DNA from: Ptychomitrium polyphyllum
Lineage: Eukaryota
Direction: 5' to 3'
Assembly (NCBI GenBank): GCA_973851085.1
Contig: OZ316776.1
Location: 4,340,001-4,404,000 of the forward strand
DNA: 64,000 nt
Below are positions 131-57,777 of this stretch, one piece after another (the first letter of the stretch is position 1; every line of letters begins with the position of its first letter). The position numbers and the translations under genes are program-made. The notes under the pieces are model-generated. The model was not told the origin of the DNA and did no database searches. It was given only the letters and a program-made list of their open reading frames with translations.

Positions 131-1959
131 GCCGTCTGCTATGCTTTTGTGTTAGAAGCGGAGCCTGAGCTGGAGAGAGTTTATTGTACGTACTAGTTTT
201 CAAAAAACTTCTGAGTCTCGAGCCTCCAATTACAGGGGATGTACCCAATTGAGACTGACCTTTCAGTCCACAGGTTCTTCTCTGGCTAGAGATACCCCCA
301 TTTGTAGCCCCTGAGGGCCTCACTAGTCAGAGAGTGAGTGCTAGATCTCGGTAATTCTGTTCATGTTAATTGGCCTTTTTCTGGAGTAAATACAAGGGCT
401 GAGAAGTATCCATGAATAATTTTCCATTACTATCTGTAATTATCTCCAAAGTTCTTGAAACGAATGATAACTTCATCCGGTTGTTGATATGTATTATCTC
501 TGTATACTTGAAGTGTGATTTTTTTTCAGTCATGGAATTTTTTTGATCTAAACTGCACTTTGTCATCTTACATGTTTGGATTGGTGTGTTTATTTTCTTG
601 CAATGGAAAAAAACCTGTCTGCTTTATAAAAAAAAAATAAGATCCAAGAAAATGTTTGTGCTTACATTCTTCAGCCAAATTACCTTGCACCATGATGAAA
701 GTACTAGAACATTAAGGTCTAGAATGTCAATCTATTTTGCTTGATTCACAACGATTTACCACTCCTTAAATGGATGAAAATGGGGAGTTGTCCCTTATTC
801 CACTTCTTTTTAAAGTATTAGATTTTGTGCAAACTAGAATATTTAGCTTGATACTCCAATGTAAAAGTGGTGCATGGTCATGTTGTTAAAGTCAAAGTAG
901 AGTGGACATGCAACTTGAAGCTAACACTCCACTTTTTATTATAGACTATTGTTTGTAAGAATATTACCTTATTTGCCAGACATAGAAAAAAAAGTTCCAA
1001 TTTAATAAATACAAACAGTATAATATGTATGAATGGTTATTGTGCTATAAAATATTAACATTTGATTTTTATTATTTTCTATGAACACAATTCTTTAGAA
1101 GCCCAAGTTTTGTCAATGTATTAAAATCATTTTAGCACCTAGTTTCCTGCATATTAATTTATATATTATAATTAGAAGTTGCCTATTAAGGTAATAAAAT
1201 ATTATATTTACATTAATGCAAAATTTTTAGATAATTTTTATGTATAGCAAAAAATAAATTAAATAAATTACTGTAAATATGATGCTAGTCCTCGAATTAA
1301 ACTAGAAATTCACATAGAAACTATTTTTAATGCCCTAAATATACCTTTTTTAAATTTAATATCTTCATTCATTATAAAAAGTAGGTTTTAAAGGAAAAAA
1401 GAAATTTTTATTATAATTTAGTTTAGAAGAAATCTTCAAGGATTTACATAAAATATACCATAAAATGTTTCTTTTATTCTCATTCACCTTAACCCTTTTG
1501 AATACCATGCAATTCTACCAATTAAAAATCATTTTACTCGTCAGCTAAAATAATGGTTAATTTACTATCTTTTAATCTTCATTCCATTTATTATCTTGAT
1601 AAAAAAAAACCTTAAGGATAAGAATGTAACAAATATAGAGCTTGTTCATATATATACAGAGATGGTTACAAGAGGCATTTCCAACACCAACACTCTATGA
1701 AAAGTGACACTTTTTTTTCCCTTTTTAAATACCAAAGGCTAAAATATACACTCACAATAAATGTGAACTGTGGATACAATGACATTTTCTCTTCGGTTAT
1801 CCCTCACATTAAAGAGAAGCATGGAACTAATTCACAAAAGCACTACTAGGGGCATGCCAGTGTACCAAAACCATCACTACGCAATGGCGCAAAATGTAAC
1901 ACTTTTGTAGATTTCAGGTTTCAGATGCAATGTTTTCATCGGTAATAGAACAGAAGTGC

Positions 1960-2470
1960 AGTGACGCTTTTTGGTTATCTCTCGCTGGAGCGGCAGACGA
2001 GATGACTGTAGTGGCACGACGGCAGGAACAGAATTAAGAGACGCATACCAAAAGCCGACACTATTCAAGAAAGCCACAATATCTATCGCAAATGTTGGAT
2101 TTGGGAATTCTAAGTGTACGAATAATATAGATAAGCAGAGCAATGACGCTTTTTAATTCCCTTGCACACTTGAGAGAACGCTCAAGAGAGGAATAGGGGA
2201 GGACCGTCGCCAGCATTCGCATAACAACAGGTGCAGTTTGAAGGAGCTCACACCTAAAACCGACACTTCTTTGAAAGCTAGATGGTAAACTATTATCCTG
2301 GACCTCAGGTTCTAAAGCGTACGTAGATAGGAGATGATGTTGCTTTAGGAAAATAGTGACGCTTTTTGGTCGTCTCGCACTCTTGAGAGGGAGAGAGACG
2401 AGAGGACCGTCGCTGGCATTTGCACGACATCGTCTCTGCTCACAACTGGAGGTGCTCCTTCCAAGTGAAA
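1960..2470 (+). repeat. Three degenerate ~190-210 bp tandem units in the promoter of the chimeric gene
   Basis: TGACGCTTTTT recurs at ~1962, ~2144 and ~2357. GAGGACCGTCGC recurs at ~2199 and ~2402. AAA(A/G)CCGACACT recurs at ~2051 and ~2256. Confidence 0.65.
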
Positions 2471-2968
2471 CGTTTCTCCGTCTTCACGCCGCACACTTCC
2501 ATCGCCGTCTCGCGGGAAGTTTTAACGCATTGCCAACGGAACCACAGAAGAGCAAACAACCCCAACTCGACCTTGCACAGCGAGCGCGCGAAAGTTCACA
2601 GCGGAAGATTTCATCATTATGTCGATGTGCTAGGGTTTCACCAAACGCCACTTTCGTTGCGCGCGCTTGACACAAGCTTTGGAGTTTACCTCTGCGAGGG
2701 AAGTGTAGAGATAGAGAAGAGAAGAATCGCATAAGGAGGAGAAGTGGAGTTGTTCGTTTTGGTTTGCGGAATGAAGAGTGTGCTGTTTGCTAGGGTTTCG
2801 ATAATTGTTACTTTTTTTGTGTAGGATTTCTTCGTTGAAGTAGTCATTGGATTTGTATACGTAGTTCAGTCGATTGAGATAGGTGAGAGGAGAATTGCGT
2901 GAGGGAGAGTGGCAGAGGAGTTGAAGTTTTGTTTGTGGGAGCCGGGGTTTAGTTTAGTGTTTGCGCGG

Positions 2969-5900
2969 ATGGCGGATGACGACGGCAGCGGGTCTCCAGC
3001 GCAGCGGCCTTATAACGGGGATCATGGCGGCGAGAGTAGGCGCGAGGTACGGCTTTGTCGGATGTGATGGCTTGGTTAAGTGAAGTTTAGGTTGCCGCGT
3101 TGATGTGAGTGGATTGAGATGAGCATGGGACTAGAAATGTCACAATTGGTCGTGTCATAGTGGCTGCGGTTGTGGCGGTGCGTGAAAACGGGAGTGAGAA
3201 AAATCGGTGCTGCTGATAATTGCCACTGTCGCCGTTGAGGCGTGTTTCAGGCTCTGCCTCTTCCGGTTCGTTACTTGGCTGTGACAGACGGGGCAGGCCG
3301 TTCGCGGAAATGTTTTTGATGAAATTGGCGTTGAATTCTGTGTATACTGGCGTTTTTTCACTTCCCTTCTCCCTCACTAGCAATTTGGCCTCGCAGTGGC
3401 GTTCGTGTTTAGCTAGTACAGGGTTGGGATTATCGGCAATTGGGATTATAGTAATAATTGCCTCGCGGTGGCTTGTGCCTTTTGCGTGCATTTTTTTAAT
3501 GTATGTTGCTTCATTGGTAGGATCTACCTGCTTGGTGATGAATGTAGTGTCTTTCTGTTTGATGTCTATATTATTTTAGGATCATCTATTTATTTAATGG
3601 GAACTTTTGTTGCTTGCATGTGCTTGAAGTCCTAGGAACTTAGGTGAACGAGCATACTTTTAATGTTGAGATTAGGTCGACAAAGGAATTCTTTGTCCAC
3701 AATAACGAGTGTTTTAACAATAATTGGGTGGATGGCTCTCTCGCTTTAATGCTTTTGAGAACGTTGATACGTCTGCTGTGAATGATTTGTGTTTGTGTAC
3801 TCATAGTTGTGGATCAGAGTAGTCCCTTGCGTGCTCGTTTGTTTTTCCAACAGAGTCCAGACGCAGATTTTTGAACTAGCTGGCAGCCGTATAATTCCCT
3901 TCGAGTGGCAGATTAGCTGTACCTGTGGGATGTTATTACGTTGTGTTTGTTTCTTTCATATTACGTGGTCTTGCATGTGCATGATTGGAGAGTCTGAGGT
4001 ATGTGACAGAAATGCTTTCATAATTCGTATTATTTTTTTGAGCCTGTGTTTGTATTGCAGCGTGTCGCCCGAGAATCCGACAGAGACGGAGAGAGGAATC
4101 GAGAGAGAGATAGGGACAAGGGTAAAGAACGTCGTCATAGAGATGTGGATGTGAATCGCGAAAGAGACCGAGGAACTAGAGACAGAGACAGGGATATGGA
4201 CCGTGATCGTCATCGCAGCCATGATCGTGAGAGGTGAGCACCTTGGAGATCGTTTGCTATGATTTTCTAGTTACTAATGCTGCTAGTTCATGCATGGAGA
4301 GCATCATGCATAATAAACTCACAAATTGTTTCTGGCTCACTGAATTTGTTTCACCTTCAGCATAGTTTACTCATGTATCTACTGTTTTGAAATACACGAT
4401 GTGTTTCTTGCTTTAACGTCTCTGCCTACGATGAACATGTCACAACGCTGTTATCCAATCTGTTGTGGAATGCAGACGTAGTCGTGAATTTGGAGACGAC
4501 CGAGATAGAAGGCAGCAGCATCGTTCTCGATCTTCCTCCCGAGGACGGTCGGGGGATGTTTCTAGGTCTAGGTCTCGTTCAAGATCCCGTTCAAGGAAAA
4601 CAAGTGGATTTGACAAGGCCGCACCAGGTGCAGGTGTTGGTTCCAGTACTGCAGTACCAGGTTTGCGTGGCCACGAGATTCATTATACATTTTCTGAGAC
4701 TAAAGTGTGCTTTTGAACCAGCTGTAATATGGCGAACGTGATCATTGTTGTCTTGGTGATCTTGTGTGAGGTTGTATAGTTAGTGCTCATTCTATCTTGG
4801 ATGCTACCAGCACTCTAATTCAAGGGCATTATATGTGTGGCTACCGTATTGTGTTACTGGAATTTACAGTTTTTTTTCTTACAAAGTATTGGAATTTCAA
4901 GTGACCTTGTGCCTTCTGAATAGATTTTTGGTTCCCATTCTTTCAGGTCTTGAACGTCGATTTCAAGCTGCTAATAATGGAAATATTTCTGGGGAACTGC
5001 AACCCCAGCAATTCAATAAGGTGGCTCTAGACGGTACAGTATGCAGTAATCTTGGTGCTGACTCGCAGCAGTCTGAGGCTCATGATGGTGGGGTGCAAGG
5101 TAACAAGCTAGCTGCTGTTTCGGCTGCAAAGACTGGGAAATGTTCTAAGTGGGGACCTGTACCTTCTTCCGATGATGCTATGCCTTCGGAAGTTGCTAAT
5201 GATTTTCAGGCTGCGAAAATGGCTGCCATTAGAGCAGCCGAACTTGGTAAGTGAATAGTTTGGTTAGAGCACCATTGCTTTATGGCAATTCCAACTATCT
5301 GCTACCTACCTGTTTATCTTATTTGATATACACAAACCTTTAAGAGTTGAATTATTGCAGAATTACACTAAGACAATGGTGCGTAGCTGGTGCTTACTGC
5401 AGGTGGTAGGTTAGTAGCTGTCTAGTTGACTGTCTAATGTGGTCTCTGTTGCGACAAGAAAAACATATAGAATCTCTTTTTTCCTCGAGGGTTGAGGTAT
5501 TCTTGTTCTAGAGATTATATTATTTTTTATATTTGATGCTTGTTGGTAACTTAGTACATTCGTATTTTCAACAATGCTGACACGGATCAACTATCACGTC
5601 TAGCTTTGCAAGCCTGTCAAAGAAGAAAATCATGCATGATTGAGATAGAGGCTTCAGGAAGTTTCTGACGTTCATTGTGTGGTATGCAGTCAATAAAAAT
5701 CTGAGTTTAGCAGGATTTATGTCAGCCGACCACAAGAAGAAGCTGTTATGGGGCAGCAAAAAGGCTCAGGTGGAGCAGGTAGGGCTACTGGATGCTGACC
5801 TGGTAGTTAATAGAAATTAAATACGATCATGGTGAGGAGGAATGTTTAATTGTTGTATAATTGTTGTTTGAGGGCAGAATAGCAACTGTGGAAATAGTTC

Positions 5901-6412
5901 CCTTCGTGATCTATGTAGTGTCCTACGTGATTATCACTCACTGTTTATGAGATGTGTTGAATAACAACTGTCATTTTGCTAACGCAAGGTGCACTGTTTT
6001 CTCTTCCATCTGGAAGCCTGGCTGAGAATTTAGCACATTGATATACAGGAGCCAGTTGTAGCAGCGGCGGGAACAAATCGCTGGGATACTGTCCATTTCT
6101 CTGATAAAGATCGGATGGAGAAATTTCACAAGCTTATGGTAAGCACCTGATATGTTTTGCGTTTGTTTTGAATGATATCACCGTTACACGGATCTGGAGA
6201 AAGTGCTTAAATTGGCTATCCTTTCCTTGTTATTGGTATTGATTGTGCAGGGTGTAAAGGGTGATATAAAAGAGGGGGAGGCACCACTACCACCCCCCGG
6301 TACAGGTATCTTTACAGAGGAGAAACAGAGAGAGCTTCAAGCGGATCTAGAGAAGCAGTTCACACAGGGACTGCGAAGACGAGATGGCCGGACTGTTGGA
6401 TTAGGACTGTAA
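2969..6412 (+). CDS. Chimeric RS-rich protein: U2AF65-derived N-terminus fused to an RSRC2-like/SMAP (small acidic protein-like) C-terminal domain, 7 exons
   Basis: Exons 2969-3046, 4061-4233, 4476-4660, 4947-5246, 5690-5778, 6049-6138 and 6251-6412 all have GT-AG introns and compatible phases. The C-terminus ...KKKLLWG...RWD..FSDKDRMEKFHKLMGVK...LQADLEKQFTQGLRRRDGRTVGLGL* is typical of plant RSRC2/SMAP proteins. The first three exons align to exons 1-4 of the U2AF65 gene in this window. Confidence 0.85.
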
Positions 6413-8260
6413 CAAGTCAATATCGATAAATGTAAAGATTGGGAGCTACAAAGAGGATTCTTATCGGGGTCTTCGGAATGCCACGCTGTGCACTCAGGAT
6501 TTTTCACGTGCAATATGTGCAGTAAGGTTTATAGCACGGTGGCTCTTCTGCAGACCACATCCTTCCAACACATGAGTCATGTCCTCAATGGAATCTGGAC
6601 CAGGATAGGATTTTGGTTCTGATCTACCTTGCTAGCTGCGCCTGCCAACCTCTGAAACCGATCTGGAATGAGTCAATAGTAGGCTAATACATAGAAAGGA
6701 CCGATCAGGCACATTTGTCTTCATTACGACTTCATGTTATCTTAGGATCATATCTTTCAGATTAAGATGTGTAAAGAATCTGTATGTGTTTTGTAATGAT
6801 ATTGGAGGAAAATCGGTTTGACAGAACGACGATATTGATGTCTCTCAAGGAAATTTCTTTCTTTCTTTCTGAATGTTCTCTTTGTCCTACCCATTTTGGT
6901 GGACCGAGCATGTTTGGTTAATTTATGGACAGGTTTGTGAACGATTATTGTCGGTAGTGATGGATTAAATTTGTAATTTCTTGAGTACGCAGTATCGGTC
7001 CAAATTTGAGTAAGGTAGGGATCACTATTTCAAGGACCTGTAAGTGTCTCCTAAACGTCCACCTGCACTCAATCAAGTTTTTATGGAACGAAGTGTTAGT
7101 GGTATGATGGTATGTGATCGATCACGTGTGTGCGGAAATATCTTACTCACCAAATATAAAGTTCTTGAGAACAAGTCCGTTTCTTAAAAATTTCGAGTTC
7201 TACCACTACGTTTTTGCAATAAGGTATTATTTTCCCAGTTATACTAAATTGCTTATACTTTTATTTGACAAAATATGTTACAATCATCACCTTACACCTT
7301 TCATTTACACCTTTTATCTTGTTTTTGTTTTATTCTAACATTTGTTTAATATGTATTACACCATGGATTTGTAATTAAACAAAATCTGAGTTGATATTCC
7401 ACAAATCACCATTTCGAGGTCAAGAAAGAACCATATTGACATCTTCACAACGATATATCCCATGAAGCCAGCATATCAATGGAGAATCAATAGGATTTTG
7501 ACAATAACCCACTACCTTTTTCTATGCGGTGATGTCAAACTTATAGACAATAGAATATAAGCCCTGTTCTAAACTGCACAAGAAAGCATCATACCAAAAA
7601 CATTCATAATATCATATTTCAGAAATACGAGATATGACATTGTAATCAAAGTTTTGTGTTGTATTTATCTTTATTTGCGTATTTGGCAATGCATTTTCTT
7701 TGTATTCTGCGAGTAGTAGTGGTCCAAACCGAATGCATAGTTTTGCAACAGGTGCGTCTCACGCTTCTCAATATCTGAAAATTTCAAGATTCATACCCCA
7801 GTTCCTCGTGAATAAACAGTATTTCTCATTAATCTGCTCATGACCAAAATATGGTCACCTCAGTACTAAAGGGTTGAGCCACAGATTTTGCTTCTTATTA
7901 ACCATCCCGAATGTTGGAGCGAGGACATAGCTACAGTAAAAGACCGCCTCAAGCTAATGGCTTATAAGGTCTGATAATCCTCAACACGTCGATGCAATGT
8001 GCCAAAGAGCCCCTAGTGGCACAATAGGTACTCTCCATCGTCACACTGCAAAACTAGTAACAAACAACACAGGTTGTCAAGAAGCCTGGAGAACACTCCA
8101 CTAGCAGACTAACTTTCTATAAAGGACACAACTCTATGCTCAAGGCCTTAGAAAATGACCCCAACTATAATATTCCTTGAGGACTGCGTACATGGCTGAC
8201 TTGCGTATTCTAACCAATGGTCATAACATTGACGGTGGACAAGGTCCTCGTCACTATCCT

Positions 8261-11200
8261 TCAAGCTCCGTAATCCCCGTCTGCAAATTTCTCCTCAGAA
8301 TAGTAGACAGCAACAACAGAGTTCCCACCAAATCTACGCCCATGAAGTGATGATTTTGCTTTCGCGGCCCCTGCTGTGTCAGAATACTCAACAAAAACCT
8401 GAAATGTCAACAAATCAACAAATCAGCAACAAATCAGTTAGTCTAACAATGCATTACAGTTAAAGAATACAACTACGAGGAAAATGAAACACAGTAAGCA
8501 GTATAAAAATGTAAGAAAAGGTAGATAGAACTAAAAATAGATGGAGACGGTTATCACAAAAGTATGGTATTAAATAAACAATCCCGACAAACAGGGGTAA
8601 CGTTGACAAAAGTAACAAACCTTGCCAACGCCAGGAACATCTTCACCACCTCTCGGTCTAGGAATAACAATCCCCATAAGATTACCTGAAAAGCACAACT
8701 TGAGATCAATTTTAAAATGGCATAAAGAACTTTAGAGAAGACAAGCAAAGCAATTTAACGAACAGTGCTTTCATTACGAGAGCCAGGTCAGTAATTGCAT
8801 AGAATACATACCGTACTTCCCACATTCTTCCTTCATATCTTCCAAGATATCTTGATACTCTTCGTCATCTTTCAATTCCTCTGGTGATACAACCTGTTCA
8901 AAAATTCCTGTGTCTTGAAACTGATAGGAGAACCAAAAAAACCTTGAAATGAAGTCAAATTCCAGACTTTTTGAAACTCCTGATATATAGACGGTTGACT
9001 GTCTTTCAAGATGCAGCTACTCACAACAATACTTCAACAAATACCTCACCTGAGTCAAAGCAACCACTTTGGTGGGCGTTTCAAGAGGGGACATTCCTCC
9101 CATGCCAGGCATCATACCAGCCATCATTGGAAGCCCAGGGAAACCCATGCCACCTAATGCAACAGCATTGGCACCACTCGCTTGCAAAGCAAGTTTCTGC
9201 ATACAACTTAAAATTGTTAAATGACAGACAGAAATCAATTTATTACGAAGATGCAATACCGAACTGCAGTCAAGTAAATAGAATACGAAGCAAAGATGAA
9301 CTAAAACATACCTGGATAGCGATTTGATGTTGAGCTTGAGCCAGCACATTTGCTTGATCAGGCTTTGGTTGTCCACTGCAACATAACAACATCCATGAAT
9401 GAGACACAGTTCTAGCAATGCCAAGATGTCAAGGCCAGCATCTGCTCTCATCTCAAGAATCTGAGATGACAATAGAACAAAACTGAAAAACGTGCAGAAC
9501 CTATTTCTCTAGTCGATCTAATTCCTCCAAGCATGTGAATTAAGATTCGTTGAGTCAAAAACATGTAGATAAGTACCAAACATAGAAGAGCTCTATGCTA
9601 GAGCTATAAGTTAGTAAATGATGTTTCTTTTGTGAAGGATAACTATTGCGAGCATGGAGACTAGTTTCCTTCACGTGTAAATGGGCTAAAGCCAACCTTG
9701 CAGTGGCCCGACGAACGTTTAATGTCTTGTCATCCATTTTCATGCCATTAAGCGTTGCACAGGCAATATCCACAACTGATGGGTCCTGTGAAAGGGGAGA
9801 GAGCGGGGCACACAGCCATACAGACGGATAGAGTGAGAAAGATTAAACCAAACTCTCTACCTGGCAGAAGCGCGACGCACGCTTAGAGTCTTATCACCCA
9901 TTTTCAACCCATTAAGTGCACCTATAGCAACGTCTGTAACAGCTGGGTCCTGCGAGATAAGTAATTTGTCACAGCTCACAGGTTATCAAAGAGCAGAACC
10001 AATCTTGGCCATGCAGAAACATCCCGACTTAATGACAAAACAAAAGTGTATTGTTCAAGATAGTTGCACATTCCTACCATTCTTGAGTAAAACACAGCTC
10101 AAGAAACATGATCAATCTGACATATGAGAAGCATTAATACCTGATACACGCAGAAACCATACCCTTTGGAGTTCCCTGTGTCCCGGTCTTTGACAAGATC
10201 AAAACCTCTCAGAGGCCTACAGTTCCAAAAAACTGGTTTAGGCTGAGTTAATGTATAACTTGGAACATCGTATATCATTAAAACTGAACGCATTTGAGAT
10301 AAAGTCTAAAACAAGAGACTCAAGTGAAACATTTGCAAGCTGACTTCTCACCCAAATGACTCGAGCAACTCCTTAATTTGAACCTCTGTCAAGTAATATG
10401 GCAAGCCTCCAACAAAGATACGATCAGGCCCATCCGCACCTCCCGCAGCACTCCTGGAATCCCCCATTATTATTAAAATCTCTTGGCCACCAGAAACAAG
10501 ATCACTAGGAGGAAAAATTTCAACATCTATGTTCAATAAGGAGAAAAGAATTTGGAATGTATAAAACCAACAATAGAAAATACAACGATAGAATCACAGC
10601 TAAACAAGTCGTTCCAATACTTGTATCAATCGATTCCCAAGAACATGTTATGCATTATAGTTGGTGAAATTATGCATCACCATATTAATATGCCTAACAA
10701 CAGACAGAATCCTAAACTAAAAGTTAATGCGCTAAGGATGCATTCCTACAAATTGTAAGCAGCTTACCCAGGGGTTAACCCAACTGCAGCCAAATTCAAA
10801 TGAGGACTAGGTTGACTTGGACCAAGAGTAGCAGCCATAGATGGATTGTAATCACTTGGTCTCCTCACTCGCACAGATACACCCTACAAAGACAGACAAG
10901 GAAACTATGTCACTTTTCAAATAGATTCTAGAGGGTAACAATTTCTACAGAACAGTAGTATCAGATAGATATATCACGTGAGCTCCACAGGAAACGTACC
11001 AAGATAATGACTAAAACCACCAAAATAAAGAGAAACTGAGCGCAGTTAAAAACTGGTACAAACCTCAAACATAATTCCATCAAGGGCCATCGCGTTGCTG
11101 GCTTCTTCAACAGTCCGCATCTCAACAAATGCAAATTTCTTTTCTTGATTGATGTAAACGTTCACAACAGCATCACCTGGACCAAAACCACATTAATCAG

Positions 11201-14200: not shown

Positions 14201-15388
14201 AGAACTACGCAACACAACACCTTACGATCAAAGGAATCCTACCAATAAAAGAAGGTGAGGGGTAGACCTCTTCACTGTGTATGAACACATGAGAAACTGC
14301 AAAACGAGGACGCCAGATAAAAACTTCGCCAGACAAGAAGGTTTCAAGAGAACACAACGGACAGTGCTCACCACCACTACTCAACACTAAGCTCAAATTC
14401 TCAACGTGTACAGTCCATTACACCAAGTGACACTACGTCAGATTTACCATCACATTCAAGCATTAATGTGATAGAGCCATCTACATGGTGATCATGTAAT
14501 AGTCGTAGATGTGGAGGATAAGGCATCCCTCCGTCAACCTTTTCTCAACATCAGTGCTCTTTAACCGGAATCCTTCCGAACTACGCACATGAAGGAAACA
14601 CCAAAAGCAACAAACATGTCCATTAAAATACAGAATCGGTCAAAATAAACTAGACCGCAAACAGAAAAATGCTGTACCTTACATTCGAATGTTTTCGTCA
14701 CCTACGTAGTCGATACTACCACCTAAGAAATATGCATTTCAGAGTGTACGTGTAAGACGCTGAATATTGCGACCATGTGGTAAACACAGCTCGCAGGTTT
14801 CCTGAATTTTGAACCACAGAGTATCGTCTTCACAAAAAAAAACTTACATTGTTTACAAGGTTACTTAATAAATTAATCATCCGCTCCAGAGGCAAACAAA
14901 GGATATCCGTCACCTTCTCACTCCCTACCAGAGTTCAAGAGTCGCCAAACGATTGTCCTCGATCAGCTGCTCGATGTGCTAACCATTGCCGAGCGCGACA
15001 CAGAAAAAGTGTCCGCCAGTGATTATAGCCAAAAACATCGAAATTGTAGCACAACGTCATGCACAAAATTTAGACAACAAAACGCCAATTCTATCGAAAT
15101 CGCCACCAATAGCCTACTCCACAACAAGAGCCACAGGACCTCAGACGCAACCAAGCGAAAATATAACTCGACGACATCTACCTCCCGCTGAGCTTCTCAA
15201 AGAACTCAGACCGATTGCTCCACATCCGACGCTCATCTCACACGACCTGACACGGCGACCTAAACCAACACCTCGGAGTAGGACTAGGATCATACCTCCC
15301 GCCGCCTCTCGCCGTTGTACTCCCCGTTGTAAGAGCGGGGCGGAGGCGAGTGGCCATACTCATACGGGCCCCCTTCGTCGTCTGCCAT
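8261..15388 (-). CDS. U2AF65: Splicing factor U2AF large subunit (RS domain, RRM1, RRM2, UHM)
   Basis: ATG at 15388 (MADDEGGPYEYGH...), RD/RS exons, then KTSGFDMAPP, ATRHARRVYVGGLPP, EKKFAFVEMR, DRIFVGGLPYYLTEVQIKELLESFG, DLVKDRDTGNSKGYGFCVY and VGKVFVEY...GRRFGGNSVVAVYYSEEKFADGDYGA*. Stop codon at 8261-8263. Confidence 0.97.
9697..9785 (-). other. U2AF65: U2AF65 RRM2 alternative exon B (89 nt), paralogue of exon A
   Basis: cag|GAC CCA TCA ... GCA AG|gttggc; encodes DPSVVDIACATLNGMKMDDKTLNVRRATA(S). Confidence 0.85.
9861..9949 (-). other. U2AF65: U2AF65 RRM2 alternative exon A (89 nt)
   Basis: cag|GAC CCA GCT ... GCC AG|gtagag; encodes DPAVTDVAIGALNGLKMGDKTLSVRRASA(S). Confidence 0.85.
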
Positions 15389-18006
15389 CCGCGCCAAGGC
15401 CACTCACAGCGGCGCTAATCCTTCCTTCCGCCGTCCCGCTACTCCGCCGTTCGCCTTCTCTGCGCGCGCGCGCTCTTTATCGCTATGTCCGGGCGATGCG
15501 ACGAGCAGCCGCGAGGTGAAGCAGAGGAAGGCAGAGTGGCGATGGCGAAACCCTAGGTCTGATGGCGATGGTTGTGTGGCAACTCTTCGCCTCCCGACAC
15601 CCTCTCCACACTCTCCACGCTCTCCCCACGTCCCTGCAAATGGTCACACCCTACCACCGTCACCGTATCCCGGAACCAGCACCTTCTACTGCTGACTTAT
15701 ATTTCGCTCCGTGGAATCTACAGAACGCATCAACAGTGTCGGCTTTAGGTGCAGTGTCGGTTTTGTGTATAGACCCCTTACCCTGCCTGTTGGGCGTAGG
15801 CTGCTTCAATTCCCAATTCAGTGGGGTCAACTTACTCATGTGCGAGATAACAGAGGAGGCCAGACTCTTCTGTGAAGATGTGGTGTACTTTGTAACTTGG
15901 AGCGTACCTTGCTTACTGTTATTATTAGAGCCTACAACACTGTTAATGTATATCACATAACTAGTTACAGTTTCCTATGTACGGTTGATATTCTTTGGTA
16001 CAATTGTATTGAAACTATCGAAACAACTAATGTTTCTGTATTCGGACAGAGCAACATTTTTTTTTACTTATTTATTTACAATCAATAAATAATACGAAAT
16101 TGAATATTGAATTATAAATACTTAAAATTTGATTTCTAAACTATCATAATTCCTCACAAGATAAGGTGGACTAAAATTGGTCGTATCAGAGATTGAGAGG
16201 GATTAAATTGGGATAGTAGTGTTTAAACTTAGGAATTTATAAGTCTAATCTCTTGTTGAATCAAACATGCAATAAGAATATGTATTTTGGTTGATGCAAA
16301 TGTTTCAAATCAATTCTACAAAAAATTAAAAACAAGTTTATAAAATCACCAATTTGATAAATTACAATAAGGAAAATTTTAGAAAATATTTTTTAAAGAG
16401 AATATCTTTTATTAAAGAAGTTTGAATTGTCATTGGTTTATACAATCTAAAGGCAAATGATTGGAGAAAAATTCCAAATGGTTAATTCTTAATTAAAAAT
16501 GAAGAATATTAATATCTCGTTTGATTAAATAGGTCAAGTTGGTAACAGCCGTCATTTAACACTTGGAATGCATTTTTTTTCCTTAAGCCTATAAGGTTGG
16601 TAATTTACAAACATTTAAAGAAAAATATCCTACTAATTTCTAATTCTATGGATATTTAATCATCAACTACAAAATAAATTGTTCATGTAATTTTCTTTTT
16701 ATTTGATATTCCTCCATAAGCTAGGAGTTTAAAGACAAGAACATCAAAGATCAATCCTACATGTTAATTTTTCAAAGTAAATAAACCTAATTCTTCAATT
16801 ATATATAAATTTGTAAAAACTATTTATATATATAATTTATCTACAACAACAGTTTTTCATATATCTTTATTTGTGTTAAGCCAACATTACTTGTTGTGCA
16901 TATACCAATTAATGGATCTCTTATAATAAATGAAACATTCATATAACATTAAAGTTGATCATTTTAATTGACATAGTAGAATTTGATATTGGATTAAAAA
17001 ATTTGCCTAAAATAGAATACAAAAGACTTTAATTGAAGCTTTGTCTTAATTTTTTCTTCAAAATTAAATAAAAAAATTGACACCTAAAAGTTGGCTCTTT
17101 TCACTTCTAACTAGTTTCTTATTTACAAATTGAAAAGTCCTTTTTGCCTTAGTTCTTAGTTTAAAAATAAATAAATAGTTTTTGAATAATATATATTTTA
17201 TGAATTGATCTTTTAAAACCTCATAACTACAAAATAAATTCTTGATATGTTCTAAATAAGATTTGCACTTCATTACAATAATTGTAATCTTCTTCCTATT
17301 TCAAATTAAAATTTAATTAAGTTAGAAAAAATTATGAAGATTTATGCCTAAATCTTAATAATTTCCTTGTTGAATTACCTTATGTTTGAAGATTCTACAC
17401 AAATCATTTTCTATTTAAAAACTATGCTAGAATTACTGTGGTAAATTCAAAATATGAAAATAGTAAATTCATGATGGCAGAGGAAAAAGAGAGTCCTCAC
17501 AATCAAGTGCAGAACAACCAAAGTACCCAACATAAGGAATTATTGCAAACCATACTAAATTACAACCACTTCCCTAATTACCTCAATCCCCTTCGCATGC
17601 CTCAGTAGCTGAGATGAGTATTTATTTATTTAAAATACAAATAGAATTTGAAAACACGATATACACTTTTGCTTTATACATACATACATACAACATATAC
17701 CAGATTCTTACTTAAAAAGATCATCATTATCATTATAGCATCATCGGTGAAGACAATGACATTGGTCTACATCGAATGGGCTTTATAGGCAACAAGTCAT
17801 GCAAAAACCCAAGTTATTTCTCGCAGAATGTCATCCAAATAAGGAAGTACACCCTTACTAGGGGTCCTGGAACCCGCCCACTCTATATATGCCCTAAAGG
17901 ACGATTTTGGGATTCTCTGACTTACCCGTCTCTCCTATTTGCTGACATACTGGTATAGTGTCGAAATATTGCTATCCTGAAAGATTAAGGCGTTAACGAG
18001 CGCTAG

Positions 18007-33435: not shown

Positions 33436-36400
33436 TGACGAGAGGCGATAATGTGACGCATCGTAGAATCACAGCGTCGAGAGGTCTCCGGACTGCAACG
33501 TACAGCACATGTTTATGGGTGCGACGTGAGGAAACCAGTCCTAGAGGATGACAGCATTGAAGGAGCAGAGTGAGACTGAAGATGCTGATTGATGCGAGTA
33601 AATCATGTGCAACGCACGCAAAGACCCATTCTCTTGCAAACCGACTCAGAGCATTGAGAGCGTCTGCTCGGATGGAGTGAGTCCATCGTCTCATCTCTGG
33701 TAAATGCAGCAGAGTTACTATTCCCTACACCGGCGACAGGGGCCGGTGACGTCCACAACTCAAACTCGAGGAAAGCCCAGTATGCTCGAAAACCGCCAAG
33801 AAGAGTGATACCAACCGCTTCGCCCTTCGAACGGCTGGGTACGTCAGCTACATCATATCCAGTGTGTACCTCATCATGCAGTCCAGAGGCATGTCTCCAG
33901 CCGGTCTGACAGGATTTACGATCGACCACAGAGAAATCGCCCGAATGAGCGCTGAGTTGTTCAGCACTAGACCTTGCCCTTGAGTTTCTTGCGAGTCGAC
34001 GTGGGAACTGACTCCACCATCACCTGCACATCAGTTCCGAATGTCACCGAGGTTTCACACGATCGCGTCCAAACCGTCGCCCGAGAACTGAATCGAAACA
34101 AGTACGAGTCGGCCGGGTTTATGTTCGAGGCCATCAGCAGCCCAGCGCTTTCACTCCGCATCTGTTACCTCGATGGGACGATGCAAGGGGGATGGGTCAC
34201 TTGAGCCAGTATCGAAGTTGTTTGGGAGCATGCTTACTCTTCCATCGTAGTCCACGCTTGCGAAGACCCACGGATCTAGTGCGCTCCATGCAATCCCTGC
34301 CACTCACAACCACCAAACCTCCGCTACTTCAGACGATGAACTTTGCTTCAGAGAAGCTACTGTCATTGACGACCTATAGCAGTCCAGCTAAAGTTGCTTT
34401 CAGTGCCGTGGCCCATGTTCGGGCGGACTGGCACTACTTTCTTGCACATCTCCGCCTCGACTGGCCGCCCGGATCATAAGCAACCTCGGGGTCCGTCCGT
34501 TACACCGCATATCGAAATTCACAAGACGAGCGTACCGTAGACACTGTCTTCGTGCTCGGTGTAGGAGCGCAACAGAGAGTCCACAGAGCCTCTCGGTAAT
34601 CCAGAAGGACTGCAAGGTTCACAGACGACCAGAGTCTGTCAGATTCCATTCACATGTTTATGGGTGCGACGTGACGAAACCAGAGGAAAGGGAGCGGACT
34701 CTGAAGTATATACCTCTTCGGTAGCGATGCATCGGCAATGCGCCACAGATTCACTACTGCATCTGTTCCTGAGCTCTGCCCAAAGGACGCACAGGGCCAA
34801 TCATGCGCAGATACAAATGACCAGACTCATAATATGCGAAACGTGGAGTCCACGACGACACTACCCGACATCTAAACGGACCCAGCACACTGCACGAATT
34901 CCAAGTACATGTGGAGGCCAGCTAGTACCAGAATCAGCTCCTCGAACTTCGGATTGTATTTGACTCTTACTGCCCTGCAACAAATGCCAGAGGTGAACGC
35001 GTGAGGACTCGCTCTCCATGCAGTGTCCTCCACCGACGAGTTCTTCTCGCTGCAAAGTCTGCATGAGGAGCAGGCCACGCGTGTCTACACTACGTGCTCT
35101 TAGCTGCCTTGAAATGTGTAAGTCCACCATATCACACGCACGGAGAAGCACAAAACACGACTGTACTACAGCACTCCTCTCCGCGGACGCGACACCGAAA
35201 GGAATCGTGTAGTCACACCCAGGCTGGCCTTCAAGCCAAGAGGTTCAGATGCCCCCTTACCAGTGGTGGTGTCCGTGCAGATTGTCCAGAGGACCGCTCG
35301 GCTTCCTCAGATCCCAGACACGGATCCAGGAGTCATCCCCTGCGGTTGCCTGCTCCACCTTAATGCCAAATCTTTCAGAAGCCAAAACTTCGTAGCAATA
35401 GCCTCTACGCCTACACTGTTCGCTACTAGAGTCACAAATCGAGAAAAACGACCCTGATCGTACAAGGGGCGTGGGGAGAACGTGGACCGTACAATGGTGT
35501 ACTTCTTCTGAGGGTTGAAATCGATGTGGCGAGTCTGAAGAGCATGCGCCTGATCGATTACAGCCGAGGAACTGCAGACCCAAACCAAACCAACAGTCGC
35601 ATGTCAGTGCGTAAGGAGGGACCCCGTCACGCTTCTGCATCCAGAACGGATACCAGACTGCCCCGCGGTATTGCCACTACATCCACAGCTTGCGGATTCT
35701 GGAGTGTGGTATGGGAACCTAACCCCTCTGTTCCGTGCTTCGAACCTGCATCCCATGGCTGGCCCTAGCACAACGAGTACCCCTGGTCCACTCCTCACTT
35801 CACGCCAGTTCAGGAGTACCTTGCTTGCGAATCTGGTGGTCCTTGGCATGCACCCACCCACCTCGTCCCACGAGCAGGAGGCGAAGAATTACCTCATAGA
35901 CCGCAGGTCCCAGCAGTGGATCGATCCCTCGGAGGCCGTTGCTATGCTGTTCACGTCGTGGGGATCCCAGGCCCCCACCTCCAAGCGATTGCGTTCCCCG
36001 GCTGACGCCTGCAGGGTAGGATGGAAAGGGAAACCGTCAGATCTGCTGCATACCCTGCTTCAACATTCATCGCAAAACGGTCGATCTTCACAACACCAAC
36101 AGCAACGGCCACACGCGCACGACATTCGTGCCCGTACAGAACCGTCCGTCCAAGACAAAGAAAAGGGAAGCGAGGCACACATGAGGCGAAGCAAAGCACT
36201 CAACGAGGAAAAAATACGCCAAATGTTGCACTGCTCTGAGGCGCTCGAATCTCAGCCACTTGTGACGCAGGTTTAGGGGGAATACGGACCTGTGACGTGT
36301 TCCGTGGAGAGTCGACGTTCCAAACCACGATCTTCTCCGTTCCTATGCTTGCGACTTGTGGATGACGACCGGATGGCCACCAGAGTGTACTGCAGTCAAG

Positions 36401-39400
36401 CCACAGGTACGCAGGACTTAGCAGGTGAGACATCGCGCTCCGGCTCTCGTTGCAACCCCCGCTACTTCGTACAGCACTGCCCTGGCCACTCGCTGGTTAC
36501 CTCGTCGCTGAGATACACTACCAGCGGCAGCTCTCAGCAGATGGGTAGTTCATCGTCCATGCTTTCTAACCATGATGAAATTGAACGCACCGAACGTGGG
36601 TGGGAGCAATTATTGACCGAACGTGATGGAGAAGCCTTACTCTCAGAAGAACCGGTAGCTGAGCGAACCAATCTGTGAGCCCGGCCTGGAGCTCACGGAC
36701 CTTCACACGGTTGCCCGAAAGAATCGGATTTCCTTTCACAGCACACTAAAGAGACCTAAATCCGCGTTTTCATAGCAGCTCGCACCTCTCACGACTTTCT
36801 GTAGTCAGATCACCACATACCACTTCCAGTGCTGCGCTACACCTGGCAAGGAGGCGGCCATCTCCACTGGCAAAGCAGCACCTCTATTTCCTCGAGATTC
36901 AGGTATCTTCCACACAGCTGTTCCTGTTTCCCCGACTGCCATGACACAGAAAACCACGCAACCATCATCAAGCCAGTGCGGTGCGTGTGCTCTGACCTCG
37001 TAACTCGCAAATCCGCCACCCAGGACCCGAAAGGCGACCAATTTCTCGGTACCCGCTCATCACACATCCCTGGCCCTCCCCTTCCCGGTCAGGCTCGGGC
37101 GGTTAGGGCCATCCTCACGAGCCAGCAACATTAAGCTTTTCACCGACAAACATGAGCAATCACAGTCCTCGACTCTTCAGCAGCGATACCATCTTGTGTG
37201 CCCGCTGTACGGTCAACACAGCTGCGGAGTCCCAAGAAGGCAGGCCAAATTCAAGGGTGGATCACATGGGGTGTCGGAGCGAACGCCAGAGGAGCGCAGC
37301 GCAGGCCGCTGCTCATTCTGATGGCTCGCCCCAGTGATGTTACCTGAGGAGTAAACCGTCGTGAAGAGTGACTTGTCGAACGGGCAGGCTGCGAGGTCCC
37401 ACATCTCATCACGGTGTGTGTACAATCCTCGACGGACCAACGCGGACGAGTTTTCTCCCAGCTCCAGCACATGAACCTGCGTGGTTCCCACAGAGCTGCA
37501 CCTCAGATGGCTCGTCATGAGATGCACCTAAATCGACCAATGCGAAATGCGCGAATGGGACCGGCTGTGACACTCGACCCACCGCGATCTGCGGCCCTTC
37601 GTTCCCTCCAGCATCACCATCGACGAGCTAAGCATTAATCTCTGCAGCCGAGTGGCAAGGAGACTGACCTCATTCTCGTACCGTAAGCTCAGGGTGCCAA
37701 CCAGCCACCGGTTGCTCTCCGTGTCCGCCGTTTGCGCCGAGATGCACCTTGCCTGAACAGAAGCAACACCACACGCGCCTCAGAAGCCACGGCCATCGAA
37801 ACCCCAAATGCAAAAGGACGCGGACGCAGTCGCATTTGTCAGTACGTGAACATTTCGCTCGAAAATCGCAGAGACTTCGAAACCCGCGCCGCACCGATCC
37901 AGGACTGGTTGAGGATCGTTGGCGGCGACACTACGCGATCACCTACACCTCTCGGCTGACCACCGCGGATCACACTGTCGGGAAGGAATCAATGCATCCA
38001 TTTCAACATCGACACCGGCTCGACAGCAGGGCCAAGAGCTATAACTCCACGTCTGGAGCACTCGTGGCTGCGATGCGCGTTGTTTGGGTGCGCGGAACGG
38101 CGTTCCGCACGATCGCCGGACGCGTGCGCGCACTCCCAGTCACACGATCCCGGCGGATGACAGGTTTCCGCGGTTGCGACAACTCGAGCCCAACCAGGCT
38201 CTCCGTTTCCGCAGGCGCTGTAGATCCATGGGACCATCTTGTCCGGCACAACCCAGTTCCCCACTTCACCTGATGCTTAAGGCCGTACGAAATCGCGCTT
38301 GGGTGCGGCGCCTGCATCCTGCCTCGAAGTTGATGCTGCCTCGATCGACGATCACACCCACCAACAACTCCGGCCTCGTCCACAGCCCGAACCGCGGCGC
38401 CCGCTGCCCGCCTCGCTCCGCTCCTCGACAGCACTCAGCCGCGCGTGCAAAATTCGCTCATCGGGTCGCCGAAACCACTTGTGCCAACTCACCACTTGCA
38501 GGCTTCCCCCTCCCTCCCCCCTCCATCCCCTCCCCGAAAGCCGCTCCCCGCGCGACTAGAGACCAGACCTCGCGCAGACCACACGCAAGCGTAAGCGCAC
38601 ACAATCGCCGGTATCTTCTTGGCCCGCAACGTTCCGGCACCAGATGCCACAGCAGCCTACGCCATGGCCGCCGAAGCAGACCGAGAATCACACTCAGTGC
38701 TCCGCTGCTTCGCGATCGGGAACCCCGTCGATACGGAAGCTTCGGCTCTTCGGCCAAAGCATCGGCCGGAATCGCAGCCGAGACTACTCGCCCATGAGCG
38801 ATCACCGTGCCGAGCAACTCGGCTGCGAAGGGCATGAAGGCTGTCGCAACACTGTCCCCGACACCCACGCAGACGCAGACGCGGAGACGCGGACTCTGAC
38901 GCTGACTGCGGCTGAGGCAGTTGGGAGGCTTTCGGAGGGCATTCGCCATCGCGCGATGCGGATTGCCACTCTGGTGCCGTGCAATGGACGCAGCCACGAC
39001 GAGCACTTGCCGTTCTGTGGGATACCATGGCGTTTCGCTCGCTTGCCAAGCGTGCAGCGTGAGTTCGAGGTCGCAGCCACAAGTTCGACTTCGGAGAAAC
39101 CCGACGTCGCTCTGCTTTTCTCTGCTCTCGCGTCTCGTTTCGTCTCGTCTCTGCCATTCTCTCTTGGTTCTCAGCGCTCACTACTTGGTTCTGCACCCAC
39201 GATTGCCACATCCGCGGGGCCCATACTAGGACTGTGCCGACCATTCCCGTCGTCCCAGGGGTCGCTGATCGCTGGGGATCCAGTTCCGTGAGCGACAGGG
39301 GATGCAGCCCGACGACGGGGGGATTCTCTGGTTGCCTGAGACCCTGTGTGTTTGTGGCGTTGCGAGGGCAAGAGGAGCTGCGGAAGCTGAACGTCAATGC

Positions 39401-39658
39401 GTTTGTGTGGGTGATCAAATGTCCCCATCAAATACAGCAAGATGTGTCGACGACGCGACGTCAAGAATAGTGCTCGCTTTATTGAACCAGCAAATGCTCA
39501 TGAGGACGGCTGCAGCAAAGTTACCTTTGCTTGCATCCGATGCAAAGGAGGGAAGAGACCTCTCCAGGAAAACAGTAATTGATCCAAGTCCAATCAAACA
39601 ATGGAGATGATGCAGTACATTATTCTGTACAAATGATGTTTCCGTGGACGATGCTGAC
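33436..39658 (-). repeat. Left arm of a large inverted repeat (minimum extent; probably continues leftward)
   Basis: Position x pairs with 97436-x. ORFs in 33603-39610 have mirror ORFs with the same translation in 57826-63833, apart from one residue. Confidence 0.97.
33967..38317 (-). CDS. DWA2: WD40 protein DWA2/EIPR1(TSSC1)-like, copy 1
   Basis: Spliced product: MQAPHPSAISYGLKHQ|ARCISAQTAD...GTLSLRYENE|VHVLEL...HRDEMWDLAACPFD...|...GAWDPHDVN...WDLRSM|...WDLRKP...GHHHW|AVRVKYNPKFEELIL|SSGTDAVVNLW...|...HEDSVY|GIAWSALDPWVFASVDYDGR|VMVESVPTSTRKKLKGKV*. Canonical splice sites. Confidence 0.9.
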
Positions 39659-40137
39659 AGGGTATATGGTTGGTGGGAGTGAAGATCTCATGACGGAGTT
39701 GTGTATATTACAACTTACTCATTGGGTGCCGTCGCCATTAGGCTTGTTATGGATGTATTGTTAGCTTCATCAAACATTAGGGAACTAGCTTAGAGATGAG
39801 GCAGCTGGTGAGCCTTTTGCATTGAAGAGAAGTGCTCTGAGGAAACAAGCAATTGTCTAGGCCCAGTGTTGACAAGCCTTGGGGTCTTTAAACACTCAAT
39901 ATCACTAGCATAAATTTACATGGGAGAGCTCTTTTGATTCGACTATCTCCGAAATTCTGCAGTGCAGGTTGAGCTCTAGAAATTTCTCGGTTTTAGTCCG
40001 CATAGAACCTGTTGCAGGTTTGGACATTTTGAACCCCACTGCTGTCGTTGTGAAGGTGAAATCTACAAATATGTCAAGTGAAGGCATCATTTGCATTAAA
40101 GGGCAGTCTTGACTTGAAGTAAGTGCTGAAGCCAGCA

Positions 40138-49254: not shown

Positions 49255-49903
49255 TCAGTCGACGGCGCCGCGGGCGCGCTTGGGGAGCTGGTCGCGGCCA
49301 CTGAAGCGGCGCTGCGCCCAGCGAGTGGTGGGCAGGAGGAGGAGGTAGAAGGCGGTGAAGAGGAAGGGGGTGGAGACGAGCCAGCCGAGTAGGGCGTGGG
49401 CGATGGCGGCCACCAGGTCGCCGGAGGCTCTGCCGGTGAGCGCCTGCCAGAGGGCGTCTTTTGAGAGTGCGAAGGGGCTGGCGCCGACGATACGTTCACC
49501 TCCTCGGAGAAACGGTACCATCAAGCTCATTTGCAATGGAGTGGCAAGGAAGTTGGCCAGCATCATGGTTGGCCCGTTGCATCTCGTGCCCAGGATCGCT
49601 GCTGCGATGCCGCAGAAGACAACCGTGACGCCGCAGATTGGGAAGACGCCGAGAGTTATACCGAGAGCCGCTGAGAGGACCAGCTGCTTCGGTTCTGCGC
49701 CCCTGCGCATGTGCAATATGGGTACAGGTTCAAATACTGGACGTGAGAGGGGAACAGAGGAGGAAGATGAGAGGTTTTGTGGTTTGAAGTGAGAGATTGG
49801 CGGGATAGTACCTCCGAAGAATTACAACGAGAGGTTTGTAAATCTTGGTTCTAGCCCATCGCACGACGCGGTAACTCCGCCACCCGCTACGCTCCCTCTC
49901 CAT
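49255..49903 (-). CDS. DUF2062-like membrane protein, 2 coding exons
   Basis: Exons 49903-49812 and 49702-49255: MERERSGW...KIYKPLVVILRR|GAEPKQLVLSAALGITLGVFPICGVT...NGPTMMLANFLATPLQMSLMVPFLRGGE... Confidence 0.85.
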
Positions 49904-57501: not shown

Positions 57502-57777
57502 TACTCCACTACCCGTTCATGATTTCCATCAAACTTGCACCATTCAAGTATTTAAGCAAACCATAAAATCAACCTCAACCGAATCTCCCATGTCTTGAAA
57601 TTAACAAGTACCCTGACCGAAGTGCAGGCAAGGCTCCCTTTCAATAGAGCTGATTAGACCCGACATACAAGACGACTTCCCTGCACAAGAGCCTATGGCT
57701 GGTGACACCAAAGTCTCCATATGAGGATCAACAGCTCGAAAAGGCAAAGCATAGAACTACTAACGCCCATCTCTCCC

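What the first reader, a model, noticed from the sequence alone, without database searches (positions are those of the whole stretch)
2969..6412. Chimeric gene: U2AF65 RS domain and GFD motif fused to an RSRC2/SMAP C-terminus, facing its parent
Seen: exon 1 (MADDDG...YNGDHGGESRRE|) matches U2AF65 exon 1 (MADDEG...YNGEYNGERRRE|). Exon 2 (RVARESDRDGER...RHRSHDRER|) matches U2AF65 exon 2 (RGSRESDRDGER...RHRSHDRER|). Exon 3 ends in RKTSGFDKAAPGA...VPG|gtttgc, against RKTSGFDMAPPGA...IPG|gtttgt in U2AF65. Intron phases match and the 5' UTR is similar (CTAGGGTTTC.CCA..CGCCACT). After that point the gene switches to unrelated SMAP-type exons, and the ORF is intact. Known: the GFD segment sits where animal U2AF65 has its U2AF35-binding ULM. 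Inference: a local inverted duplication and exon shuffling created an RRM-less protein that may still bind U2AF35 or other UHM proteins, acting as a decoy or adaptor next to canonical U2AF65.
Basis: partly seen in the sequence, partly recalled or inferred. Interest (0 to 1): 0.8.

Follow-up and report, generated by a model that had tools for sequence, protein, structure and literature searches.

The report
Moss RSRC2 with borrowed U2AF65 tail
In this moss, the gene for the splicing helper RSRC2 begins with an old, still-conserved copy of the first exons of its neighbour, the core splicing factor U2AF65, so the predicted (not yet transcript-confirmed) hybrid protein likely uses U2AF65's arginine/serine tail in place of its own, a natural domain swap between two splicing proteins.

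Summary
The chimera is real at DNA level. Seven GT-AG exons (2969-6412) give an intact 358-aa frame. Exons 1-3 copy exons 1-4 of the facing U2AF65 gene (74-81% nt; 104/145 aa, dN/dS 0.25). Intron 1 is homologous too (z 19), so the copy was genomic. Exons 4-7 are a well-conserved moss RSRC2/SMAP half. None of 236 long RSRC2 relatives has this N-terminus, but a shortened Physcomitrium SMAP protein appears to carry a relic of it (p 0.0002), so the fusion is probably old and shared. No RNA run was available, so the 4660-4947 splice is unconfirmed. The decoy idea is weakened: KTSGFD is kept, but the following MAPP became KAAP and the next 15 codons carry 10 replacements. Most likely this is a working RSRC2 whose disordered RS/RD tail was replaced by U2AF65's RS domain. 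New variant of a known kind; interest 0.55.

The parts
2969..3046 (+). Exon 1, derived from U2AF65 exon 1 (start codon, 26 codons)
   Evidence: 16 of 26 aa identical, dN/dS 0.24, phase-0 donor shared
3498..3823 (+). Intron-1 segment homologous to U2AF65 intron 1 (14738-14386)
   Evidence: 224 of 373 columns, z 19 against 200 shuffles; overlaps the stretch 14514-14635 also kept by another U2AF65 paralogue
4061..4233 (+). Exon 2, RD/RE-rich, derived from U2AF65 exon 2
   Evidence: 74% nt, 46 of 57 aa, dN/dS 0.13
4476..4660 (+). Exon 3: RS repeats, KTSGFD and a diverged linker; equals U2AF65 exons 3+4 with the intron between them missing
4596..4625 (+). KTSGFD core (identical to U2AF65 in DNA) followed by KAAP in place of MAPP
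   Evidence: codon list
4661..4946 (+). Phase-1 fusion intron: donor inherited from U2AF65 intron 4, acceptor in front of the RSRC2 half; the breakpoint lies in or at the end of it
   Evidence: best donor in 4480-4945 (10.3 bits), acceptor 2.5 bits within the range of U2AF65 acceptors; 4947 is one of four open in-frame acceptors (4887, 4902, 4947, 4968); body not alignable to U2AF65 introns (z 0.4, 0.0)
4947..5246 (+). Exon 4: RSRC2-derived linker, KWGP motif and start of the conserved helix
   Evidence: 45% over 100 aa with moss RSRC2 fragment P0001, homology from 4964
5690..5778 (+). Exon 5, RSRC2 conserved region (KKKLLWG)
6049..6138 (+). Exon 6, start of the SMAP domain
6251..6412 (+). Exon 7, end of the SMAP domain and stop codon
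   Evidence: dN/dS 0.06 against L001
13197..15388 (-). U2AF65 exons 1-4 (15388-15296, 14086-13896, 13676-13545, 13261-13197), the donor of the copied segment
8261..15388 (-). Intact canonical U2AF65 gene, 18 exons, 569 aa, tail-to-tail with the chimera

Best explanation
This is a moss RSRC2/SMAP gene whose first three exons are an old genomic copy of U2AF65 exons 1-4, and the predicted spliced product likely works as an RSRC2 that uses the U2AF65 RS domain in place of its own disordered tail. Shown: an inverted, intron-bearing copy of the U2AF65 5' end sits in frame and in phase in front of four RSRC2 exons, and both halves evolve under purifying selection. Inferred mechanism of origin: a local inverted duplication put the U2AF65 5' end in front of the 3' half of an RSRC2 gene, the phase-1 donor of U2AF65 intron 4 was spliced to an acceptor before RSRC2 exon 4, and one U2AF65 intron was lost precisely. 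Inferred function: the borrowed RS/RD tail gives nuclear-speckle targeting and contacts with RNA and SR-type proteins, as the native tail does in human RSRC2, while the helix and SMAP half keep their own partners; the GFD segment came along as the end of the copied exon and probably binds U2AF35 weakly or not at all. The event likely predates the split from Physcomitrium, which appears to keep a shortened relic.
For: Homology of exons 1-3 and intron 1 to U2AF65. dN/dS 0.19 (95% bootstrap 0.10-0.32) over the RS region and 0.25 over all 145 codons at dS 0.67-0.83, with all alignment gaps in whole codons and no stop; a copy that had been neutral since duplication would give a pairwise value near 0.5 (inference). 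C-terminal half groups with mosses (95/92) on a 0.04 branch; exon 7 dN/dS 0.06. No canonical RSRC2 N-terminus in the 64-kb window (16 proteins of 300+ aa among 18 queries, best E 0.17). Native RSRC2 N-halves have similar composition (R 16-19%, S 9-18%, D+E 20-23% in 7 tested; gene A 27, 14, 21). Human RSRC2 needs its N-terminal disordered region for speckle location and splicing (PMC12993456, passages); the U2AF2 RS domain also promotes speckle location (PMC12956353, abstract). MAPP is present in the window's U2AF65 and 5 of 5 angiosperm U2AF65 fetched but is KAAP here, with 10 non-synonymous and 2 synonymous changes in the 15 codons after GFD. The neighbour rather than the other paralogue is the closer donor: 0 of 10 against 5 of 10 third-position differences in codons 136-145 (counted by hand). 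Physcomitrium SMAP protein P0323 residues 6-29 align without gaps across the exon 1/2 join (score 61, p 0.0002 in 5000 shuffles; best of 228 canonical RSRC2 N-parts 53, best of 5 angiosperm U2AF65 44), and its first six residues score 17 against gene A versus a maximum of 15 for 225 canonical starts.
Against: No transcript evidence for any junction. The RS region is low-complexity, so the alignment and dN/dS may be flattered, and the value is pairwise, not lineage-specific. RKTSGFD is fully conserved (7 of 7 codons, no base change), which fits selection on that motif, although 7 of 7 is expected about 13% of the time at the RS region's 75% identity (own arithmetic). No full-length RSRC2 from any true moss other than Sphagnum and the short Physcomitrium protein was retrieved, so the moss distribution is thin, and P0001 differs from gene A over its first 16 residues without showing what lies further upstream. 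The Physcomitrium match is short (11 of 24 identical), was picked by eye before testing, and has only E 0.88 in a BLASTP of the 145-aa N-terminus against 243 proteins. Function is carried over from human RSRC2; no plant RSRC2 study was found.
Confidence: 0.55

Rival explanations
1. Adaptor or decoy: the chimera keeps a working U2AF35-binding motif, so it either tethers the RSRC2/SMAP half to the U2AF complex or competes with U2AF65 for U2AF35.
For: RKTSGFD unchanged in protein and DNA while the next 15 codons diverge. The motif lies between the RS domain and RRM1 in plant U2AF65, where animal U2AF2 has its ULM (PMC12709185 passage). One proline and the Gly after it survive (KAAPG).
Against: MAPP to KAAP removes a hydrophobic residue and a proline of a segment kept in 6 of 6 U2AF65 seen; the proline/aromatic extension is required for high affinity in the human and fission-yeast complexes (PMC5113200). 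The ULM is defined by a central Trp; plant GFD has Phe, and I found no paper mapping plant U2AF35 binding to it.
Confidence: 0.2
2. Extra paralogue: the genome still has a canonical RSRC2 elsewhere, and the chimera is an additional, specialised SR-like protein, perhaps co-regulated with U2AF65 through the copied promoter and intron-1 element.
For: The runs hold at least one and probably two further U2AF65 paralogues, so duplicates are common here. The copied intron-1 element and a weak upstream match (z 5.4) could carry U2AF65-like regulation. The whole genome could not be searched.
Against: The SMAP half is slow-evolving (branch 0.04), as expected of the working orthologue, whereas the Physcomitrium relic runs long (0.54).
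Confidence: 0.15
3. Two separate units: a decaying partial U2AF65 duplicate (2969-4716) that merely lies upstream of an RSRC2 3' half transcribed from somewhere else.
For: No RNA confirms the junction; the 4947 acceptor scores only 2.5 bits in a small matrix.
Against: The duplicate is under purifying selection, has kept its strong phase-1 donor, and matches the phase of exon 4; only 286 bp separate the halves; no other RSRC2 5' half lies in the window; the Physcomitrium protein, also held as Logan-derived sequences that include the exon joins, appears to show the same kind of N-terminus joined to SMAP exons.
Confidence: 0.07
4. No fusion: the N-terminus is the ancestral RSRC2 tail and resembles U2AF65 by convergence of RS repeats.
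For: Ten legume RSRC2 proteins have [TS]SGFD, so the motif can arise independently.
Against: Intron-1 DNA homology, shared splice sites and 74-81% nucleotide identity; 0 of 236 relatives start like U2AF65 or have SGFD followed by prolines; the legume motif lies 6 residues before the conserved helix, a different place.
Confidence: 0.02

Closest known systems
RSRC2 (arginine/serine-rich coiled-coil 2), SMAP family PF15477, plant orthologues and human RSRC2
   Same: Disordered R/S/D/E-rich N-half, conserved helix, KKKLLWG and C-terminal SMAP domain; groups with moss RSRC2.
   Different: The native N-half (YRR-type start motif in 195 of 236) is absent and is replaced by U2AF65-derived exons; 358 aa against 436-804 aa in Sphagnum and liverworts.
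Plant U2AF65 (U2AF large subunit)
   Same: Exons 1-3, intron-1 element, RS domain and KTSGFD core.
   Different: No RRM1, RRM2 or UHM; one intron lost; MAPP changed to KAAP; linker diverged.
Physcomitrium patens SMAP protein XP_073391085.1 / PHYPA_000956 (P0323, 144 aa)
   Same: SMAP exons 5-7 with the same boundaries and a short N-terminus resembling the chimera's exons 1-2.
   Different: Lacks most of exon 2, all of exons 3 and 4, so no RS repeats and no GFD; long branch (0.54). Unstudied: no paper names these ids.
Chimeric genes formed by partial duplication and exon shuffling (e.g. the Oryza fusion genes of PMC9199173, seen as search listing and abstract start only)
   Same: DNA-level partial duplication joined in phase to an unrelated gene.
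   Different: Here both parents are splicing-related proteins and the exchanged module is an RS tail replacing a similar tail.

Membership tests
RSRC2 / SMAP family | C-terminal SMAP domain PF15477 | tested here: met
   exon 7 E 2.5e-7 (31.7 bits, cut-off 29.5); exon 6 E 0.0013
RSRC2 / SMAP family | Conserved helix and KKKLLWG region before SMAP; placement among plant orthologues | tested here: met
   moss clade with Sphagnum 95/92, 25 rows chosen from the fetched proteins
RSRC2 / SMAP family | R/S/D/E-rich disordered N-terminal half | tested here: met
   composition similar, but of different origin
RSRC2 / SMAP family | Native plant RSRC2 N-terminal motif (FRKP...YRR) homologous to other members | tested here: not met
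   absent from the gene and from the window; so a variant with a replaced N-half, not an ordinary member
RSRC2 / SMAP family | Speckle location and role in splicing | not testable with these tools
   known for human RSRC2 only (PMC12993456)
U2AF65 family | N-terminal RS domain | tested here: met
   93 of 124 aa identical to the neighbour
U2AF65 family | RRM1, RRM2 and C-terminal UHM | tested here: not met
   no RRM hit in exons 2-7 and exon 4 does not align to U2AF65 (z -1.5)
ULM (UHM ligand motif) | Central Trp preceded by basic residues | tested here: not met
   GFD has Phe; basic residues are present (definition from PMC5113200). Canonical plant U2AF65 has Phe too, so this does not exclude a plant-type motif
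ULM (UHM ligand motif) | Proline/aromatic extension needed for tight U2AF35 binding | tested here: not met
   MAPP to KAAP and 10 replacements in 15 codons (requirement from PMC5113200)
ULM (UHM ligand motif) | Binding to U2AF35 or another UHM | not tested
   no U2AF35 sequence was in hand, so no complex was predicted
Chimeric gene from genomic partial duplication | Halves homologous to two unrelated genes, with intron homology and a phase-compatible junction | tested here: met
Chimeric gene from genomic partial duplication | One transcript across the junction | not testable with these tools
   no RNA holder listed

The most novel reading that the evidence does not exclude
In a lineage of true mosses the only RSRC2 gene was rebuilt by capturing the RS domain and U2AF35-binding core of U2AF65, so that RSRC2/SMAP became physically tethered to the U2AF 3' splice-site complex through a Phe-type plant ULM: a lineage-specific alternative partner for U2AF35 that reads no RNA by RRMs, later reduced to a relic in Physcomitrium.
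Probability: 0.15. Interest if true: 0.8.

Novelty: new variant of a known kind. Interest (0 to 1): 0.55.

Why it matters
It is a natural RS-domain swap between two splicing proteins, kept under purifying selection over a long time (dS about 0.7-0.8). It tests in vivo whether RS tails are interchangeable modules, gives a handle on plant RSRC2, for which I found no functional study, and supplies a natural mutant (MAPP to KAAP with KTSGFD kept) for asking whether and how the Phe-containing motif of plant U2AF65 binds U2AF35. Physcomitrium offers a tractable host and seems to hold a decayed form. Chimeric genes as such are common, and nothing here shows a new activity yet.

Tried and rejected
No genome is held for this window. 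RNA: no RNA holder listed; this is no evidence on expression. Second RSRC2 copy: at 80% likeness no contig at genome depth was laid on exons 4-7 other than the gene's own, only one 151-nt piece at depth 10.6 against 365 in X2, whereas U2AF65 paralogues were picked up on 38-nt pieces; contigs show presence, not absence, so this is only a hint that the gene is single-copy. Searches for full-length chimeras in other mosses found none: (131, 315 and 5 hits; best 120, 120 and 5 listed; 189 hits, 150 listed; 1 locus of 139 candidates, holding only the last exon; 0 of 603 in prokaryote genomes), cluster look-ups. The word-based searches are weak on RS-rich queries and did not even return a moss U2AF65. 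Atlas: exon 3 gave only hits of 0.81 or less; P0323 gave SMAP clusters. PDB: the U2AF65 GFD exon did not hit the solved U2AF complexes. No complex prediction was run because no U2AF35 was in hand. Telo-box likeness rejected as evidence. Introns 2 and 3 do not align to U2AF65 (z -0.1, 0.4, 0.0), so the breakpoint cannot be placed inside 4661-4963. Physcomitrium synteny could not be tested: two family papers list only Pp3c25_5610 as U2AF65 (supplements), while P0323 lies on a 30.3-Mb contig that I take, from recall, to be chromosome 1. Earlier scan findings: none returned. Low synonymous divergence in the GFD exon (2 of about 17 sites against 46 of 92, Fisher p 0.003) may mean later conversion by the neighbour or its cDNA, which could also explain the precise intron loss; this was noticed after the fact and is unexplained.
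Full report
Observation. The stretch 2969-6412 reads as seven exons (2969-3046, 4061-4233, 4476-4660, 4947-5246, 5690-5778, 6049-6138, 6251-6412) with GT-AG introns in phases 0, 2, 1, 1, 0, 0 and an uninterrupted 358-aa frame (one search had exon 5 one base too long). Facing it, tail to tail, is an intact 18-exon U2AF65 of 569 aa (15388-8261). One contig of DNA run X1 covers 2000-9753 without a difference and X2 covers 3020-9359 likewise; both runs are one sample and may be the window's source, so this argues against a local mis-join but is not independent. The C-terminal half groups with mosses; the species was not determined.

The N-terminal half is a copy of U2AF65. BLASTN finds exon 2 at 74% (E 5e-37), the two parts of exon 3 at 77% and 81% (E 1e-19, 2e-15) and exon 1 weakly. 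Over 145 codons 104 residues are identical; dS 0.67, dN 0.17, dN/dS 0.25 (bootstrap 0.15-0.41); the RS part alone gives 0.19 (0.10-0.32) (Nei-Gojobori, pairwise). A copy that had been neutral since duplication would be expected near 0.5 against a constrained parent (inference), so the copy has been selected as protein for much of its history; low complexity may flatter the figure. Intron 1 is homologous over 3498-3823 (224 of 373 columns, z 19 against 200 shuffles), which shows a genomic, not retroposed, copy; the same intron stretch is kept by another U2AF65 paralogue. Introns 2 and 3 no longer align. U2AF65 has a phase-2 intron before KTSGFD (13544-13262) that the copy lacks exactly; a second paralogue has an acceptor at that place, so this is a loss in the chimera. 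The neighbour is the closer donor: in codons 136-145 it differs at 0 of 10 third positions and the other paralogue at 5 of 10 (counted by hand), though later gene conversion could give the same pattern. The 5' UTR likeness is a common telo-box (name recalled) and is not evidence.

The C-terminal half is RSRC2. Exons 6 and 7 hit SMAP PF15477; the named hits are plant arginine/serine-rich coiled-coil protein 2. Exon 4 matches the moss fragment P0001 from base 4964 on (45% over 100 aa). In a tree of 25 chosen C-terminal halves the gene sits with Sphagnum and three other moss sequences (95/92) on a branch of 0.04; exon 7 has dN/dS 0.06 against L001. Among 236 fetched SMAP proteins of 300 aa or more (top hits and cluster members, some near-duplicates), none starts like U2AF65, none has SGFD followed by prolines, and 195 have a YRR-type start motif; 11 have SGFD, 10 of them legumes with it 6 residues before the conserved helix. 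No canonical RSRC2 start lies in the window.

The junction. The donor at 4660 is the U2AF65 intron-4 donor and the best in its neighbourhood; the acceptor at 4947 is modest (2.5 bits) but within the range of the 17 U2AF65 acceptors used to build the matrix, and is one of four open in-frame acceptors. No RNA run holds the stretch, so the splice is inferred.

Age. The Physcomitrium SMAP protein P0323 (XP_073391085.1, 144 aa) has SMAP exons 5-7 and a 32-residue N-terminus. Residues 6-29 align without gaps across the chimera's exon 1/2 join (11 of 24 identical, score 61; p 0.0002 in two kinds of 5000 shuffles), better than to the neighbouring U2AF65 (56), to any of 228 canonical RSRC2 N-parts (best 53) or to 5 angiosperm U2AF65 (best 44); its first six residues also resemble the U2AF65-type start (17 and 19 against at most 15 for 225 canonical starts). 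The match is short, was noticed by eye, and is not significant in a database BLASTP (E 0.88; E 0.004 pairwise with exon 2). I put about 0.7 on it being a relic of the same fusion. The fragment P0004 is sister to the gene (93/93) but lacks its N-terminus. Sphagnum has the native type.

How it most likely works. Human RSRC2 has a disordered R/S-rich N-terminus that is required for speckle location and for splicing rescue, while SMAP is dispensable in those assays (PMC12993456, passages). Removing the RS domain of human U2AF2 reduces speckle location and many contacts (PMC12956353, abstract). Native plant RSRC2 N-halves have a composition close to the borrowed tail. The simplest reading is a like-for-like swap: RSRC2 lost its own tail and runs on U2AF65's (0.55). 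Whether it is the only RSRC2 in this genome is open (0.15 for an extra paralogue).

The U2AF35 question. RKTSGFD is unchanged, even in DNA, but MAPP, found in the neighbour and 5 of 5 angiosperm U2AF65, is KAAP, and the 15 codons after GFD carry 10 non-synonymous and 2 synonymous changes. In the human and fission-yeast complexes a proline/aromatic stretch after the ULM Trp is required for high affinity, and the ULM is defined by a Trp after basic residues (PMC5113200, passages). The equation of plant GFD with the animal ULM rests on position (PMC12709185, passage) and on recall; it did not show by sequence search, and no mapping paper turned up (searches; passages of PMC6510283 and PMC12027700). 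An adaptor or decoy role stays possible (0.2). A basic-Trp motif, KWGP, in exon 4 is native to RSRC2 (20 of 228, in liverworts, a lycophyte, ferns and Mesotaenium) and would be the more conventional candidate for UHM binding; untested.

Novelty. Nine literature searches returned no report of a U2AF65-RSRC2 fusion or of the Physcomitrium ids; the library lacks most subscription journals, bioRxiv supplements were not seen, and moss genome papers may list the gene in tables I did not open. For PMC8635922 I saw the listing and supplement passages; for PMC12027700 passages and its supplement. The scan's own notes held nothing. Verdict: a real, selected, probably old chimeric gene; a new variant of RSRC2 rather than a new kind of system; interest 0.55.

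Noticed in passing
window 9861-9949 and 9697-9785 (-): U2AF65 has two tandem 89-nt exons, 71% alike, same phase and both open, encoding the end of RRM2: likely mutually exclusive exons.
   Followed up: partly
window 33436-39662 and 57775-64000: A 6.2-kb or longer inverted repeat, 99.97% identical (1 mismatch, 1 gap), flanking about 18 kb and running off the window's end: a very recent inverted duplication, a large element, or an assembly feature.
   Followed up: no
window 14514-14635 (-): Non-coding element in U2AF65 intron 1 kept at about 89% by another U2AF65 paralogue and in decayed form by the chimera; a candidate regulatory or poison-exon element.
   Followed up: partly
window 1945-2429 (+): Three loose copies of a roughly 200-bp unit upstream of the chimera with ACCGACAC cores, also seen upstream of U2AF65 at about 15735-15765; CCGAC resembles a drought-response core (recalled).
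   Followed up: no
P0144, P0145, P0147, P0159, P0162, P0163, P0165, P0176, P0180, P0183: Ten legume RSRC2 proteins have K[TS]SGFD just before the conserved helix, apparently an independent appearance of the U2AF65-like motif in the same family.
   Followed up: partly
window 5146-5157 (+), exon 4: KWGP, a basic-Trp motif shared by RSRC2 of liverworts, a lycophyte, ferns and Mesotaenium but not by the Sphagnum or seed-plant rows shown; a possible native UHM ligand.
   Followed up: partly
window 40138-41886 (-) and 49255-49821 (-): Open frames that look like an MFS-type transporter and a small membrane protein (names from recall, not tested).
   Followed up: no
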